Source: a virus
Taxonomy: Duplodnaviria; Heunggongvirae; Uroviricota; Caudoviricetes
IMG/VR virus record: IMGVR_UViG_3300044807_000039
Location: 1 to 64,000 of that record
DNA: 64,000 bases
Strand: one strand, 5' to 3'
Below are positions 9,328-58,644 of the stretch, one piece after another. The notes beneath the pieces are model-generated. The model was not told the origin of the DNA, did not search any database, and saw only the letters and a list, made by a program, of their open reading frames with translations. A program made the translations under genes and the position numbers. Position 1 is the first letter of the stretch, and every line of letters starts with the position of its first letter.

Positions 9328-9507
9328 ATGAATATTTATGAACGCCAACCAGGTGATTCGATTTGGATTGTGAAATATAAAATGTCTAATACCAAATTTG
9401 CCTCCAAGCAGGTTTTTGGTAAAGATAAATCGGATGCCCTAGAGCGATTCAGGAGAATTCATAATTACGACGGGAAATACGTCGTTGAATCGATTTCAAA
9501 AAAGTAG
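9328..9507 (+). CDS. small protein, member of paralogous ~60 aa family
   Basis: MNIYERQPGDSIWIVKYK...; shares the aromatic-x-V-x-V-N ... A...A ... V-x-V ... W pattern of the family listed in Findings. Confidence 0.4.
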   Translation: MNIYERQPGDSIWIVKYKMSNTKFASKQVFGKDKSDALERFRRIHNYDGKYVVESISKK

Positions 9508-9510
9508 TGC

Positions 9511-9539
9511 TTGACAGGCTAGATGAAGTACGCTAAAGT
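9511..9539 (+). promoter_or_regulatory. sigma70-like promoter TTGACA-N17-TAAAGT
   Basis: TTGACA 9511-9516, TAAAGT 9534-9539; TSS predicted ~9546. Confidence 0.55.
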
Positions 9540-9546
9540 AGTTCTT

Positions 9547-9624
9547 ACCAGGTTGCGAATGAGCATTCCGCTTTGACCACATGGGGTCATGATTTCCGAT
9601 CAGTGCGAGTCTGATCAACCTGGT
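9547..9624 (+). ncRNA. promoter-proximal tRNA-like structured element (8-bp acceptor-like stem, 6-nt 'anticodon' loop, T-arm GATCAG-TGCGAGT-CTGATC)
   Basis: ACCAGGTT...AACCTGGT terminal stem; internal hairpins; non-canonical loops. Confidence 0.35.
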
Positions 9625-9629
9625 TATAA

Positions 9630-9701
9630 TCCCCCATCTTTCAATTGGTAGGAAGAGTGGCTGTTAACCACTTAATCTAGGTTCGAGTCCTGGTGGGGGA
9701 G
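9630..9701 (+). tRNA. tRNA-Asn (GTT)
   Basis: acceptor TCCCCCA/TGGGGGA, anticodon stem AGTGG/CCACT loop CTGTTAA, T-arm CTAGG-TTCGAGT-CCTGG. Confidence 0.75.
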
Positions 9702-9726
9702 CTTTAAAATATGTTACAATTTAACT

Positions 9727-9948
9727 GTGCAATTGATTCACAGACTTAAGGTTAAAGCAGCAGATCCAAAAGTTTGGAAGAAATTCCATATGTCTGCAAC
9801 AATATTTTGGTTCGTTGCAATTATTCCTACTGTAGTGTTTTGGTCGGAATCGGTATTGTGGATCGGTTTGGTAAGCTGCTATGCTAACATGGTTGGGCAC
9901 TTCGGAGCTTGGCAAGCTAGTAGAGCAGAAGATAGTGAAAATAATTAA
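9727..9948 (+). CDS. small membrane protein (GTG start uncertain)
   Basis: 2 predicted TM helices 'IFWFVAIIPTVVFW...'. Confidence 0.35.
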   Translation: MQLIHRLKVKAADPKVWKKFHMSATIFWFVAIIPTVVFWSESVLWIGLVSCYANMVGHFGAWQASRAEDSENN

Positions 9949-9953
9949 ATTAT

Positions 9954-10042
9954 GGGAGTAAGGCGGATATTTGGTTGGCCGCGTCAGACTGTAAATCTGA
10001 AGTCTTAATTGACCGTTGGGGGTTCGACTCCCTCTGCTCTCA
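9954..10042 (+). tRNA. tRNA-Tyr (GTA), class II long variable arm
   Basis: acceptor GGGAGTA/TGCTCTC (2 G-U), D-stem GCGG/CCGC, anticodon stem TCAGA/TCTGA loop CTGTAAA, 17-nt variable arm, T-arm GGGGG-TTCGACT-CCCTC. Confidence 0.7.
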
Positions 10043-10084
10043 CGGGTGCTAGTTGTAAATCACCGGCAGAAAAACTAGCATTAT

Positions 10085-10156
10085 GGTCCTTTAGCTTAAA
10101 TGGTAGAGCGCAGAGTTGAAGCCTCTGGGGAAACGGTTCGATACCGTTAGGGACCA
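10085..10156 (+). tRNA. tRNA-Phe (GAA)
   Basis: acceptor GGTCCTT/AGGGACC, D GCTT/GAGC, anticodon CAGAG-TTGAAGC-CTCTG, T-arm AACGG-TTCGATA-CCGTT. Confidence 0.8.
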
Positions 10157-10181
10157 CGCTCGCCTTTATGATTCGCGGTCA

Positions 10182-10239
10182 TAGAGGTCACCTCAGAGAT
10201 AAGAGGCTAGTTAGGTCGGTTCGAGTCCGACACCACTAT
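10182..10239 (+). ncRNA. anticodon-arm-less tRNA-like element (acceptor+D-arm+T-arm only)
   Basis: TAGAGGT..ACCACTA acceptor (1 mismatch), D-like CCTC-AGAGATAA-GAGG, 8-nt linker, T-arm GTCGG-TTCGAGT-CCGAC. Confidence 0.35.
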
Positions 10240-10312
10240 TGTGGGTGTAGCGGAAACATGCTAGAGTGAGCTGTACAGCGACGGTAGGCCACCTAAACTG
10301 CTGTACAGACAA

Positions 10313-56087: not shown

Positions 56088-56154
56088 CCAAGTGTGTGAC
56101 CTTAATGTTATAATGTATACTCGGGGGATAGAAATATCAATACTAGGAGGATAC

Positions 56155-56724
56155 ATGTTTAAAAATAGCAAGCAGGTCAGGTCGAGAATTTTGGCAGGGG
56201 CTTTTGCAGCATTGGTAACAGCAGGCTTGGTAGTTAGTACTACCGAAGATCCAAAGCCAGTCCAAGTAGCTGCCCCCCTGCCTATTGTAAAGGTTGCACC
56301 GAGAGCATTTATTGATCGTGAGACACCTAAGATTTATAAGGTTCCAACGGTTGCTGTTCTTGAAGTTAAGGAAGTAGCAAAGGTGGTAGCGTTGGCGCCC
56401 AAGCCAACGCCAAAGCCCAAGGTTATTCCAAAGAAGCCAGTTACCCAAAAGGCTAAGCCAAAGGTTCAGTCAAATGTAAATGGTGGAGTGTGGGACCGGA
56501 TTGCACAATGTGAATCTGGTGGCAGATGGAATATTAATACAGGAAATGGATATTATGGTGGTCTGCAATTTAATCAGGCCACTTGGAATAGTGCGGGCGG
56601 GCAAAAGTACGCTGCACGGGCTGATCTAGCAACCAAAGCTGAGCAGATCGCTGTAGCGGAGAATCTTCGTTCCAAGCGGGGCTTGCAGCCTTGGGAGTGC
56701 GCTGGTAAGCTAGGACTACGCTAG
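56155..56724 (+). CDS. secreted Rpf-like (resuscitation-promoting factor) transglycosylase domain protein
   Basis: '[33 protein letters not shown]' Rpf signature; N-terminal TM; PK-rich linker. Confidence 0.7.
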
Positions 56725-56752
56725 CAAGTCGCTAGGTAACAATTAACAGCGA

Positions 56753-56787
56753 AAGGGAGATCCTAACCGGTCTCCCTTTCCTTATTT
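56753..56787 (+). terminator. rho-independent terminator
   Basis: GGGAGA..TCTCCC + TTTCCTTATTT. Confidence 0.55.
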
Positions 56788-57120
56788 GGGAGGTAGGTAT
56801 GTGCTTCTTGAAGCGTAATAAAGATAAAAAGCCTAAGCGTGTCAGAGTAGTGCTACATGACGGTAAGAAGCTCACTCCGCAGCAGGAAGCGCGGCGGAAG
56901 AAGGCACTTCGTGATCTTGGAAACCAGCAAACCCTTAAAGAATTTGGTGGCAAATGAGCAAGACACCTGATAAGGTGCAATGCGACAAGTGCAAGGATAA
57001 GTTTGGGAGCATGAAGCTCTTTCTAGAGCATCCTTGCGCCAAGAAGGGTCTTCATCCCCATGCTATTAAAATTCCTTCACAGCGATGACTATGCGAGCGC
57101 AAATCATCCGGTCACAGACC

Positions 57121-57150
57121 TTGACGAACTGGTTCGGACTGGGATAGAGT
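57121..57150 (+). promoter_or_regulatory. promoter TTGACG-N18-TAGAGT
   Basis: TTGACG 57121-26, TAGAGT 57145-50. Confidence 0.45.
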
Positions 57151-57183
57151 ACTAGTGTACCGAGCACCAAAGAGGGAGTCAAA

Positions 57184-57477
57184 ATGGCATTGTTTCGCGG
57201 ACCTGATGCAAAGCATGCACAGGATTATGTTGCAAAAAAGGGTGGACAACCAGACAAGCCTAAAGTAACAAAGAAGGTAGTTAAGGTGGCTAGCGCCAAG
57301 GCCAAGGTGGGTGCTAAGGTAGCAGTCAGCAAGGTTCGTAAAACCGCTATAAATCAGCTGAAGAAAAAGAATCTTGCTGCTAATAATGAAGATCGTTGCA
57401 TCCGCCCTGGCTGTAAGTATAAGCCTTGGAAAGGGTCGCACGTTGGTTTTTGTTATGATTGCGAACGTAAATACTAA
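57184..57477 (+). CDS. basic K/A-rich protein with C-terminal zinc motif
   Basis: histone-like KKVVKVASAKAKVGAK; 'CIRPGC..CYDCERK'. Confidence 0.45.
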   Translation: MALFRGPDAKHAQDYVAKKGGQPDKPKVTKKVVKVASAKAKVGAKVAVSKVRKTAINQLKKKNLAANNEDRCIRPGCKYKPWKGSHVGFCYDCERKY

Positions 57478-57519
57478 TTTAATATAACCAACAATAACTA
57501 AACTACAAGAGGAGTTAAT

Positions 57520-57885
57520 ATGGGTTGGGGAAGCGGCACAGGCCGGAATAAGCGTACCGGCAAAGAACGCGCCAAGGCTGGCCTGCAAATGGCCAAGAAG
57601 CTGACTATCAGTATTCCTTCTGGCAAGATTTCGAATATGAAGAAGGTTGAAGCTCTTAAGGGCGTTTATAAGACTCGTATTCGCAAAGGTCAGTGTCCGT
57701 GGTGTAGTAAAACCATGAATAAGCCAGGATACATGCACACCAAGTGTGCCAAGGAGATGTGCGAGTCGGAAGCCGATCAGTACATCGTCAACACCGATGT
57801 CGACAACAATCCCGTTGAACCTTATACTTCCGATGGCCGTAAAAAGATCAACATCCGTTGGGATGAGCCTGGATTTAAATGGTAG
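57520..57885 (+). CDS. zinc-binding hypothetical protein
   Basis: 'CPWCSK...CAKEMCE'. Confidence 0.45.
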   Translation: MGWGSGTGRNKRTGKERAKAGLQMAKKLTISIPSGKISNMKKVEALKGVYKTRIRKGQCPWCSKTMNKPGYMHTKCAKEMCESEADQYIVNTDVDNNPVEPYTSDGRKKINIRWDEPGFKW

Positions 57886-58049
57886 GCAAAAGAGTTGTTA
57901 ACTCTCCTCCGTCACCCTATTTCCCGGCAAAGAGTCGTAGAAGCAGGAAGACCACAGATATCCAATGTGATATCTGTGGGCAGTACTACACCAAAGAAAC
58001 AGCCATTAAAGAATGCTACGAATGGCACATAGGAAATAGATAGGATAAC

Positions 58050-58241
58050 ATGGCAGACGAAATTACATATGAGGTATTTGTGAATGAAAAGATTCAGGAT
58101 CGTGGAAGCGATAAGGACGCTGCTATCAAACTTGGTCGAAGGCTAGGTAGAGGAGCAAGGTCTGGCTTCATCGTTGTAAATGAATTGAAGAATGGTAAAA
58201 CCACGCTCATCTTCCGATGCAACAATGGCAAAGTAGGTTAG
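58050..58241 (+). CDS. small protein, paralogous family member
   Basis: MADEITYEVFVNEK... Confidence 0.45.
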   Translation: MADEITYEVFVNEKIQDRGSDKDAAIKLGRRLGRGARSGFIVVNELKNGKTTLIFRCNNGKVG

Positions 58242-58249
58242 GAGCCACA

Positions 58250-58429
58250 ATGGCAGATAAGTATGATCTCTATATTAATGACATGAAGGAAACAACCGAC
58301 CTGAGTAAAATTCGTAAGAACGCCCGCAAGTTTGGTATCCGTGGCTCTAGGGTCAGGGTCGTTCGTAATGGTAAGGTTCTTTTCAAGATGGAGAATAAGA
58401 AGGTTAGCATCAATGAATTGGGTCTTTAA
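58250..58429 (+). CDS. small protein, paralogous family member
   Basis: MADKYDLYINDMK... Confidence 0.45.
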   Translation: MADKYDLYINDMKETTDLSKIRKNARKFGIRGSRVRVVRNGKVLFKMENKKVSINELGL

Positions 58430-58644
58430 TGGCCGGACGTACGGATCGTAGAGCAAATCCACAATTCATGGTCGTAGCTGATAATAAAAGATGGGGTAGC
58501 ACTGAGCCATTGCGCTATGAGGAAGCAATGGCCAAGGTTAAGGAGCAACTAAACTCTAAACCCAGGCCGAAGGTTATGGCTTTGATTAAGGTTAGGCCAC
58601 ATAAACGTAATCTAATAGTGAATAAGTGGATTAAAGGGAAGTAG
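58429..58644 (+). CDS. small protein, paralogous family member
   Basis: ..FMVVADNKRW...VMALIKV.. Confidence 0.4.
   Translation: MAGRTDRRANPQFMVVADNKRWGSTEPLRYEEAMAKVKEQLNSKPRPKVMALIKVRPHKRNLIVNKWIKGK

What the first reader, a model, noticed from the sequence alone, without database searches (positions are those of the whole stretch)
9328..58644. Paralogous family of small (55-75 aa) proteins interleaved with the tRNA genes
At least 11 ORFs share the pattern aromatic-x-V-x-V-(N/G) ... A...A ... V-x-V ... (V/I)W and sit in runs, often ATGA-coupled, between tRNA genes and again at 58.0-58.6 kb. They are at 9328, 10415, 13470, 14839, 17778, 18136, 18333, 18506, 58050, 58250 and 58429. Expansion of one tiny protein family specifically within tRNA arrays suggests either a mobile or duplicative module that travels with tRNAs, or a tRNA/RNA-associated function such as small RNA-binding or antitoxin-like proteins.
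Basis: seen in the sequence. Interest (0 to 1): 0.6.

Follow-up and report, generated by a model that had tools for sequence, protein, structure and literature searches.

The report
Small basic phage protein family, tandem arrays
A phage of actinobacteria carries seven to nine copies of an undescribed 55-67-residue basic protein with a confident two-hairpins-plus-helix fold; the copies arise by tandem duplication, their position among tRNA genes is incidental, and their function is untested.

Summary
The family is real but smaller than claimed. Seven of the 11 ORFs are demonstrably homologous: 10415, 14839, 17778, 18136, 18333, 18506 and 58050. Two more, 58250 and 58429, are likely members by profile-profile rank and array position. 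13470 is unresolved and 9328 is not supported.

AlphaFold gives a confident beta-beta-alpha-beta-beta fold (pLDDT 93). All members are basic (pI 9.6-10.9). Pfam, PHROGs and NCBIfam hold no matching family.

An exhaustive search of 1.84 billion proteins found relatives in only one other lineage, 65-68% GC actinophage-like contigs. There, 4-6 paralogs form overlap-coupled tandem arrays under purifying selection, with no tRNA gene on any fetched locus.

The window comes from a relative of Streptomyces cluster BE phages. Phage NootNoot has the same tRNA-rich layout but no family member. The 'module travelling with tRNAs' idea is therefore not supported.

The 58-kb array shows loose synteny with the foreign arrays. 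The best structural analogue, at fold level only, is the anti-CRISPR AcrIF9. It has the same topology and a positively charged DNA-binding cleft.

My inferred function is an early accessory protein that binds nucleic acid or a nucleoprotein complex.

The parts
10415..10606 (+). Family member (63 aa, pI 9.8), certain. It starts 29 nt after tRNA-Asp and lies upstream of an SPFH/band-7 gene.
   Evidence: 18-sequence profile E 4.4e-5, full-length alignment. Foreign-only profile E 8e-3. C-terminal AKWVEGKRV motif.
14839..15042 (+). Family member (67 aa, pI 10.4), certain. It starts 28 nt after tRNA-Lys(ttt) and lies upstream of a DUF7873 gene.
   Evidence: Foreign-only profile E 7e-8. It was not found with window sequences alone.
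17778..17945 (+). Family member (55 aa), certain. First gene of the four-gene run 17778-18679.
   Evidence: phmmer against 18506 gives E 2e-7. Foreign-only profile E 1.4e-8. Called by JGI as P0003.
18021..18094 (+). tRNA-Lys(ctt) gene lying inside the family run, between members 17778 and 18136.
   Evidence: ARAGORN. Rfam tRNA, 46.3 bits.
18136..18336 (+). Family member (66 aa, pI 10.9), certain. It has a longer loop between strands 3 and 4.
   Evidence: Iterative window profile E 3.4e-5. Foreign-only profile E 6e-3.
18333..18509 (+). Family member (58 aa), certain. Its start overlaps the preceding stop (ATGA).
   Evidence: phmmer against 18506 gives E 1e-6. Foreign-only profile E 7.9e-9. Junction read.
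18506..18679 (+). Family member (57 aa), certain. ATGA overlap with the preceding gene. This is the sequence whose structure was predicted.
   Evidence: Foreign-only profile E 3.7e-9. AlphaFold2 pLDDT 93.4, with strands at 2-7, 10-15, 34-40 and 45-51 and a helix at 18-28.
57520..57885 (+). 121-aa protein (MGW...KGQCPWC) upstream of the 58-kb array. Weak counterpart of the 155-aa gene at L010:7438-7905.
   Evidence: Pairwise BLASTP E 1e-5, 25% identity over 88 aa. Not significant in a database-wide phmmer search. No Pfam hit.
57879..58043 (+). 54-aa protein with a C-x2-C-x13-C-x3-H motif, ending 7 nt before the 58-kb array. Counterparts lie about 300 nt upstream of the foreign arrays. A second window copy is at 8113-8322.
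   Evidence: Pairwise BLASTP E 1e-4 against L010:9152-9328. phmmer against the window 8113-8322 copy gives E 2e-3. Alignment A4 has invariant C, C, Y, C, H and G.
58050..58241 (+). Family member (63 aa), certain. First gene of the 58-kb array. It lacks the conserved Trp.
   Evidence: Iterative window profile E 6e-4. Foreign-only profile E 2.7e-5.
58250..58429 (+). Likely family member (59 aa, pI 10.2). Second gene of the 58-kb array.
   Evidence: HMM E 0.012-0.035. hhalign 53% probability, rank 1 of 107 small ORFs.
58429..58644 (+). Possible to likely divergent family member (71 aa, pI 11.1). Third gene of the array, with a TAATG overlap.
   Evidence: hhalign rank 2 of 107, 12% probability, residues 13-71 aligned to profile columns 10-64. 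No HMM hit. Single-sequence AlphaFold pLDDT 63.5, with strand, strand, helix, strand in order.
13470..13700 (+). Unresolved candidate (76 aa). It starts 32 nt after tRNA-Thr and lies upstream of a macro-domain gene.
   Evidence: HMM E 0.1-1.8. hhalign 3%, score 15.1 against a best noise score of 13.9.
9328..9507 (+). Claimed member, not supported (59 aa).
   Evidence: Never retrieved by any profile or by hhalign. It aligns poorly in A2.

Best explanation
The window comes from an uncultured large phage of actinobacteria, distantly related to Streptomyces cluster BE phages.

Shown:
- It carries 7-9 paralogs of an undescribed family of 55-67-residue, strongly basic proteins.
- They fold as hairpin, helix, hairpin (beta-beta-alpha-beta-beta).
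- The family grows by tandem duplication into overlap-coupled runs. The same arrangement occurs in a second, high-GC actinophage lineage with no tRNA gene on any fetched locus.

Inferred:
- The array at 58.0-58.6 kb sits in a neighbourhood loosely shared with the foreign arrays and is probably the older locus.
- The copies at 10.4-18.7 kb lie among tRNA genes only because this phage type packs its small early genes and its tRNA genes into the same region. One tRNA gene lies inside a run.

Function (inferred, not shown): these are accessory, host-directed early proteins that bind a polyanionic target, meaning nucleic acid or a nucleoprotein complex. The proposed site is a conserved basic patch: K/R after each of the two Asn-Gly turns, plus the conserved Trp. 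The analogue is AcrIF9, which has the same topology and a positive DNA-binding cleft. Paralog diversification would broaden the range of targets.
For: Homology: an independent foreign-only profile retrieves the window members, and larger profiles agree.

Real genes: ribosome-binding sites are present. dN/dS is 0.09-0.34 among orthologous array genes in L009, L010 and L012.

Fold: pLDDT 93.4.

Rarity: only 2 foreign hits among 1.84e9 representative proteins, and no further lineage with richer profiles. Pfam, PHROGs and NCBIfam give nothing.

Tandem arrays without tRNA genes.

Phage identity and layout:
- DnaE is 47% identical to cluster BE Streptomyces phages.
- The gene order is shared: DnaE, RecA, Cas4, then a tRNA array with Ro-like, band-7, RNA ligase, PNK and rIIA/B genes.
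- Cluster BE1 phages are known to carry 43-48 tRNAs (PMC5764925).
- NootNoot has no family member.

Synteny of the 58-kb locus with the foreign arrays.

Charge:
- All 20 confirmed or likely members have pI 9.6-10.9.
- 33% of the other small ORFs in the window have pI above 9.5.
- Basic residues concentrate at profile positions 10, 54 and 55, next to the two NG turns.

Against: No functional evidence exists.
- I had no model coordinates, so the spatial clustering of the basic residues is inferred from topology alone.
- The synteny rests on one strong match (E 1e-26) and two weak pairwise matches (E 1e-4 and 1e-5).
- The direction of spread between the 58-kb locus and the tRNA region is not established.
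- Six of seven certain members do lie in the tRNA-dense region, so some RNA-related role cannot be excluded.
Confidence: 0.6

Rival explanations
1. These are tRNA- or RNA-handling accessory proteins. They would bind the phage's own tRNAs or precursors, for example as chaperones or as protection from host anticodon nucleases. Their position among tRNA genes and RNA-repair genes would then be functional.
For: Six of seven certain members lie at 10.4-18.7 kb, in the tRNA-dense stretch. The window also encodes Ro60/TROVE, a Thg1-like enzyme, two RNA ligases, PNKP and a macro domain. The members are uniformly basic. The A3 profile gives a weak match to the strand-strand-helix part of both PKR double-stranded-RNA-binding motifs, with whole-sequence E 1.9e-4.
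Against: The foreign arrays have no tRNA gene on any fetched locus. tRNA-rich NootNoot lacks the family. The PKR match is E 0.083 per domain and also hits a designed repeat protein, so it looks like an idealised hairpin-helix pattern. The predicted topology is not that of a dsRBD. Enrichment in the tRNA region is not significant against other small ORFs.
Confidence: 0.15
2. These are direct protein inhibitors of host defence or toxin proteins, in the manner of anti-CRISPR proteins or the T4 antitoxin Dmd. Paralogs would have diversified in an arms race, and the basic charge would be incidental.
Confidence: 0.2
3. This is the reader's first reading: a mobile or duplicative cassette of tRNA plus small ORF that spreads together.
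For: 10415, 14839 and 18136 (and the candidate 13470) each start 28-41 nt after a tRNA gene.
Against: Ten or so non-family genes show the same spacing. There is no DNA repeat beyond the T-arm consensus. The foreign arrays have no tRNA genes. NootNoot has tRNA arrays without the family.
Confidence: 0.04
4. The pattern is chance or compositional resemblance among unrelated short ORFs.
For: Only 2 of 55 pairs reach significance in direct pairwise comparison. 9328 and 13470 cannot be linked to the family.
Against: An independent foreign-only profile retrieves six to seven window ORFs at E from 4e-9 to 8e-3, ahead of every other ORF among 907. The fold prediction is confident. The orthologs are under purifying selection.
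Confidence: 0.01

Closest known systems
Anti-CRISPR AcrIF9 (PDB 7chr, 7bb5, 6vqv)
   Different: Sequence identity is 11%, with no profile hit. The Foldseek E-value is 0.4-0.6. AcrIF9 is a Pseudomonas phage protein that targets the type I-F Csy complex. Nothing links the present family to CRISPR. AcrIF9 is not known to me as a tandem paralog array.
T4 Dmd antitoxin (PDB 5hy3_B)
   Different: There is no sequence similarity (9% identity). From my own knowledge of its sequence, Dmd is roughly neutral in charge and single-copy. The family here is strongly basic and multi-copy.
Double-stranded-RNA-binding motif (dsRBD; PKR, PDB 1qu6)
   Same: There is a local strand-turn-strand-helix sequence pattern, F-x-V-x-V-(D/N)-G-(K/R)...(S/D)-(K/R)-x-x-A-x-x-x-A-(K/A). 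The A3 profile hits both PKR motifs, with whole-sequence E 1.9e-4.
   Different: The per-domain E-value is 0.083. The dsRBD topology is alpha-beta-beta-beta-alpha, whereas this family is beta-beta-alpha-beta-beta. There is no Pfam dsrm hit. A designed repeat protein matches the same stretch.
Small hypothetical genes interleaved with tRNA genes in Streptomyces cluster BE phages (for example NootNoot, Stanwilliamsviridae)
   Same: The genome layout is the same. Dozens of tRNA genes on one strand alternate with genes of 40-90 codons of unknown function, beside Ro-like, band-7, RNA ligase, PNK and rIIA/B genes (PMC5764925).
   Different: None of NootNoot's ORFs belongs to this family. The window phage shares only 47% DnaE identity and has no near DNA match in 50,697 phage records.
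Designed EEHEE miniproteins (PDB 5up1)
   Same: The order of secondary-structure elements is the same and the size is similar. There is a weak profile hit at E 0.18.
   Different: These are artificial proteins. The resemblance shows only that the fold is simple and idealised, which also explains why AlphaFold is confident with five sequences.

Membership tests
The small-protein family itself, as defined here by alignment A5 | Significant match to a profile built without the sequence being tested | tested here: met
   Met for 17778, 18136, 18333, 18506, 58050, 14839 and 10415. Borderline for 58250 (E 0.01-0.035). Not met for 13470, 58429 and 9328 in HMM searches.
The small-protein family itself, as defined here by alignment A5 | beta-beta-alpha-beta-beta fold | tested here: inconclusive
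   Confident for 18506 with the five-sequence alignment (pLDDT 93.4). For 58429 alone, pLDDT is 63.5 and only strand, strand, helix, strand is seen.
The small-protein family itself, as defined here by alignment A5 | Basic charge and C-terminal W-x-(N/D)-G-(K/R)-(K/R) motif | tested here: met
   pI is 9.6-10.9 in all 20 members. W50 is present in 81%, G53 in 94% and K/R55 in 81% of weighted sequences. 58050 and 14839 lack the Trp.
   ARAGORN finds no tRNA in L008-L012 or L014. NootNoot has more than 40 tRNAs but no family member.
   The direct repeats in 8000-22000 are tRNA T-arm consensus or short two-copy matches of 16-28 nt, none of which joins a tRNA to a family ORF.
Type II toxin-antitoxin antitoxin | An adjacent cognate toxin gene in a two-gene operon | tested here: not met
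   Flanking genes are paralogs, tRNA genes, SPFH/band-7 or DUF7873 (macro domain next to the unresolved 13470). The Pfam scans I ran on these and other large neighbours found no toxin domain. Small neighbouring genes and three of the large ORFs gave no Pfam hit, so this rests on the annotated neighbours only.
dsRBD (Pfam PF00035) | alpha-beta-beta-beta-alpha topology and a match to the family profile | tested here: not met
   The predicted topology is beta-beta-alpha-beta-beta. Pfam gives no dsrm hit for any of 14 members at E up to 10. Only a local motif match to PKR exists, at per-domain E 0.083.
AcrIF9 anti-CRISPR family | Sequence homology to AcrIF9 | tested here: not met
AcrIF9 anti-CRISPR family | Inhibition of the type I-F Csy complex | not testable with these tools
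   This needs biochemical or plaque assays. The host of the window phage is unknown.
Cluster BE-like Streptomyces phages (Stanwilliamsviridae), as the source of the window | Shared replication genes and gene order, a large tRNA array, and a genome of about 130 kb | tested here: met
   DnaE is 47% identical over 99% of its length. The gene order is shared. The window has 30 tRNAs. The contig is 132 kb. The similarity is only at family level or more distant: there is no near DNA match and no tmRNA in the window.

The most novel reading that the evidence does not exclude
The family may be one part of a conserved small-gene module found in distant actinophages. The module would comprise a CPxC protein, a CCCH mini zinc-finger protein, and a translationally coupled array of diversified basic beta-beta-alpha-beta-beta proteins. 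The array products could assemble into a hetero-oligomeric nucleic-acid-binding or defence-blocking complex. That would be a new kind of multi-paralog phage counter-defence or host-takeover device, built on an AcrIF9-like scaffold.
Probability: 0.15. Interest if true: 0.6.

Novelty: new member of a known kind. Interest (0 to 1): 0.33.

Why it matters
Small genes of unknown function make up a large share of the early and accessory regions of this window and of its cultured relative NootNoot. From my own knowledge, such genes are where anti-defence and host-takeover proteins are commonly found.

This family has several practical merits. It has a high-confidence fold and a clear sequence signature. 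Its products are short enough to synthesise. Its array organisation is shared by two distant actinophage lineages.

It is therefore a tractable candidate for binding and anti-defence screens in Streptomyces and related hosts. The work also corrects a tempting but wrong inference: in tRNA-rich phages of this type, lying next to tRNA genes says little about a gene's function.

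Tried and rejected
Searches that found nothing:
- The search for related loci with alignment A1 failed because no stretch was conserved enough.
- IMG/VR scans with 18506, with a foreign member and with the rIIA-like protein found no relatives.
- Loci found through the DUF7873 neighbour (L001-L004) are unrelated phages with no tRNA gene and no family member.
- tblastn of one foreign member and of 13470, 58429 and 9328 against 50,697 phage records found no match.
- Pfam, PHROGs and NCBIfam gave only scattered single-member hits above E 0.007.
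- Foldseek against the PDB and BFVD gave nothing at E below 0.001.
- The AlphaFold-database library was not available.
- The 10-kb stretches of the source contig on either side of the window hold no further member.
- The A5 profile search added no new lineage.

Inconclusive:
- Single-sequence AlphaFold of 58429 had low confidence.

Considered and rejected:
- dsRBD membership was rejected on topology and the absence of a Pfam hit.
- A toxin-antitoxin reading was rejected for lack of a toxin partner.
- A tRNA+ORF cassette was rejected for lack of repeats or co-occurrence.
- A link to the ribosomal-protein-like genes reported in the BE1 phage Riptide (uL24, L7/L12; PMC12509530) was rejected because the family is unrelated to them.
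- The bL28 hits at E 0.3 are not significant.

Full report
**1. The observation**

All eleven ORFs exist on the + strand with ATG starts at the stated positions, and most have an AGGAG-like ribosome-binding site. The overlaps ATGA at 18333 and 18506, and TAATG at 58429, are present. ARAGORN finds 30 tRNA genes, all on the + strand, between 8.4 and 35.6 kb. Rfam confirms 24 of them.

**2. Is it one family?**

With window sequences alone the evidence covers only part of the list.
- phmmer links just 17778 with 18506 and 18333 with 18506.
- An iterated profile against all 907 stop-to-stop ORFs converges on five members: 17778, 18136, 18333, 18506 and 58050.

The decisive evidence came from outside the window. 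An exhaustive HMMER search of 1.84 billion representative proteins with the five-member profile returned the five window proteins plus two foreign ones, P0006 and P0007. Both lie on 2-kb contigs of 65% GC. There they are surrounded by further paralogs in tight, overlapping runs.

A profile built only from eight foreign sequences, and therefore independent of the window, retrieved these from the 907 window ORFs, with nothing else above them:
- 18506: E 4e-9
- 18333: E 8e-9
- 17778: E 1e-8
- 14839: E 7e-8
- 58050: E 3e-5
- 18136: E 6e-3
- 10415: E 8e-3
- 58250: E 0.035

An 18-sequence profile raised 10415 to E 4.4e-5 with a full-length alignment.

hhalign of the 20-sequence alignment against 107 small + strand ORFs of the window placed the remaining claimed ORFs at the top:
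- 58250: 53% probability
- 58429: 12%, residues 13-71 aligned
- 13470: 3%, score 15.1 against a best noise score of 13.9

9328 never appears.

A single-sequence AlphaFold run on 58429 was weak (pLDDT 63.5). It did give strand, strand, helix, strand in the expected order.

Verdict: seven certain members, two likely (58250 and 58429, helped by their position in the array), one unresolved (13470) and one unsupported (9328).

**3. What the proteins are**

*Fold.* AlphaFold2 on the five-member alignment gives pLDDT 93.4. Strands lie at residues 2-7, 10-15, 34-40 and 45-51, and a helix at 18-28.

*Conserved residues.* The conserved columns are mostly core positions: Y/F3, V/I5, V7, A21, A/G25, V35, V/I37, I/V47, A48 and W50. 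There are two Asn/Asp-Gly turns, at positions 8-9 and 52-53. Each is followed by basic residues: K/R10 in 62% of sequences, K/R54 in 69% and K/R55 in 81%.

*Charge.* Every member is basic, with pI 9.6-10.9 and net charge +3 to +11. Only about a third of the other small ORFs in the window have pI above 9.5.

*Selection.* Orthologous array genes in three foreign contigs have dN/dS of 0.09-0.34, so these are real genes under purifying selection.

*Known families.* No Pfam, PHROGs or NCBIfam family matches.

The AcrIF9 crystal-structure paper describes two antiparallel hairpins joined by one helix, a monomer, and DNA binding by a positively charged cleft (PMC7714069). That is the same topology and the same electrostatic character. 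With 11% identity it is an analogy, not membership.

*dsRBD resemblance.* A sequence-profile search of PDB chains hit the strand-strand-helix part of both PKR dsRNA-binding motifs, with whole-sequence E 1.9e-4. The per-domain E-value is 0.083. A designed repeat protein matches the same stretch, and the topology differs. I treat this as an idealised hairpin-helix pattern.

**4. Where the window comes from, and the tRNA question**

The window has no near DNA match in 50,697 phage records. It belongs to a 132-kb metagenomic contig.

Upstream on that contig lie DnaB, primase, DnaE, dUTPase, RecA and a Cas4-like nuclease. DnaE is 47% identical to that of Streptomyces cluster BE phages such as NootNoot.

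NootNoot shows the same layout. After DnaE, RecA and Cas4 comes a long tRNA array on one strand. It is interleaved with small hypothetical genes and with Ro-like, band-7, RNA ligase, polynucleotide kinase and rIIA/B genes. Cluster BE1 phages are known for 43-48 tRNAs (PMC5764925).

Yet no ORF in any frame of NootNoot's 131 kb matches the family (best E above 1).

Conversely, the only other lineage with the family is a set of 65-68% GC contigs whose portal protein resembles those of Microbacterium and Arthrobacter phages. It carries four confirmed paralogs plus one or two divergent small genes in a row. No tRNA gene is found on any fetched locus (2-20 kb).

Within the window:
- there are no DNA repeats linking tRNA genes to family ORFs;
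- about ten non-family genes start just as close behind a tRNA gene;
- roughly 43 of 97 small ORFs lie in the tRNA region anyway.

The run 17778-18679 is a four-gene array with tRNA-Lys(ctt) lying in one of its intergenic gaps.

The family is therefore not a companion of tRNA genes. It is a tandemly expanding accessory family that, in this phage, shares a region with them.

**5. The 58-kb locus**

The gene that ends 7 nt before 58050 is a 54-aa protein with a C-x2-C-x13-C-x3-H motif (57879-58043). It resembles the 58-aa gene that lies about 300 nt upstream of the foreign arrays (pairwise E 1e-4).

The gene before that (57520-57885, MGW...CPWC) resembles L010:7438-7905 (pairwise E 1e-5).

Window 50881-51336 matches L010:1223-1630 at E 1e-26, at a similar distance upstream of the array.

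This loose synteny suggests that the 58-kb array corresponds to the foreign arrays. The two weaker matches would not survive a database-wide correction, so I call this suggestive.

**6. Mechanism**

Shown: homology, tandem and overlap-coupled organisation, purifying selection, a confident fold, conserved basic charge, patchy distribution, and absence of a tRNA linkage.

Inferred: the two NG turns with their basic residues, and the conserved Trp, lie at the same end of the molecule and form a binding patch. I could not inspect coordinates. From the patch and the charge I infer that the proteins bind nucleic acid or a nucleoprotein complex. By analogy with AcrIF9 and from the genomic setting, I infer that they act early on host targets. 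I infer that paralog diversification widens the range of targets.

I put about 0.85 on the description of the family and its evolution. I put about 0.3-0.4 on the polyanion-binding, host-directed function. The overall confidence is 0.6.

Rivals are a tRNA- or RNA-specific role (0.15), pure protein-protein inhibition of defence proteins (0.2), the tRNA cassette (0.04) and chance (0.01).

**7. Novelty and score**

The family is absent from the curated libraries I searched. It occurs in only two lineages among the proteins searched, so it is a new family. Multi-copy small accessory families in large phages are a familiar kind of thing, the fold is simple, and no function is shown. I rate it a new member of a known kind, with interest 0.33.

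Noticed in passing
window 16332-16407: This tRNA-like gene has an 8-nt anticodon loop. ARAGORN reports a four-base anticodon 'cctt' and no amino-acid assignment. Rfam scores it as tRNA at 41.1 bits. The alignment with the Lys and Arg tRNAs shows a 6-bp anticodon stem flanking GGCCTTTT. It may be a frameshift-suppressor-like or non-canonical tRNA.
   Followed up: partly
window 8677-8706, 10215-10230, 15983-16012, 19316-19345: These are copies of the tRNA T-arm consensus (GGTTCGAATCC with flanking stem) that lie outside any tRNA called by ARAGORN or Rfam. They may be degenerate or unusual tRNA-like elements.
   Followed up: no
window 22958-24559, 25922-26614, 37982-39076, 39086-40009, 54358-55011, 13746-14204: The window holds a dense set of RNA-repair and RNA-quality-control genes: Ro60/TROVE with a vWA domain, a Thg1-like tRNA-His guanylyltransferase, a T4 Rnl1-type RNA ligase, polynucleotide kinase-phosphatase, a second RNA ligase (PF09414) and a macro domain. 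No Y-RNA or tmRNA reached the Rfam gathering threshold in the window, whereas NootNoot has a tmRNA annotated.
   Followed up: partly
window 8113-8322 and 57879-58043; L010:9152-9328; L012:9177-9353: This is a second tiny family with an N-terminal K-R-V-V-N/P-N-P stretch and a C-terminal C-x2-C-x13-C-x3-H-x-G motif (alignment A4). One window copy sits just before the first tRNA gene. The other sits directly before the 58-kb array. The foreign copies lie about 300 nt upstream of their arrays.
   Followed up: partly
window 50881-51336; L010:1223-1630: A 151-aa protein with no Pfam hit is shared between the window phage and the high-GC actinophage contigs (phmmer E 1e-26). In both it lies 7-8 kb upstream of the family array.
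   Followed up: no
window 15075-15806: The DUF7873 protein (Pfam E 2.6e-94) has 42-53% identical homologs on four IMG/VR contigs of 90-108 kb. Those contigs have no tRNA gene within 10 kb and no family member. It looks like a mobile accessory gene.
   Followed up: partly
L009:644-832 compared with L010:10189-10371 and L012:10189-10371: The genes at array positions 1, 2 and 4, and the small gene just upstream of the array, are conserved between these contigs (dN 0.03-0.13). The gene at position 3 is strongly diverged, or replaced by another paralog. This may be a hot spot for diversification.
   Followed up: no
window 5962-6426, 47527-47994, 58931-59431: There are three HNH endonuclease genes. 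The third lies about 300 nt after the 58-kb array.
   Followed up: no
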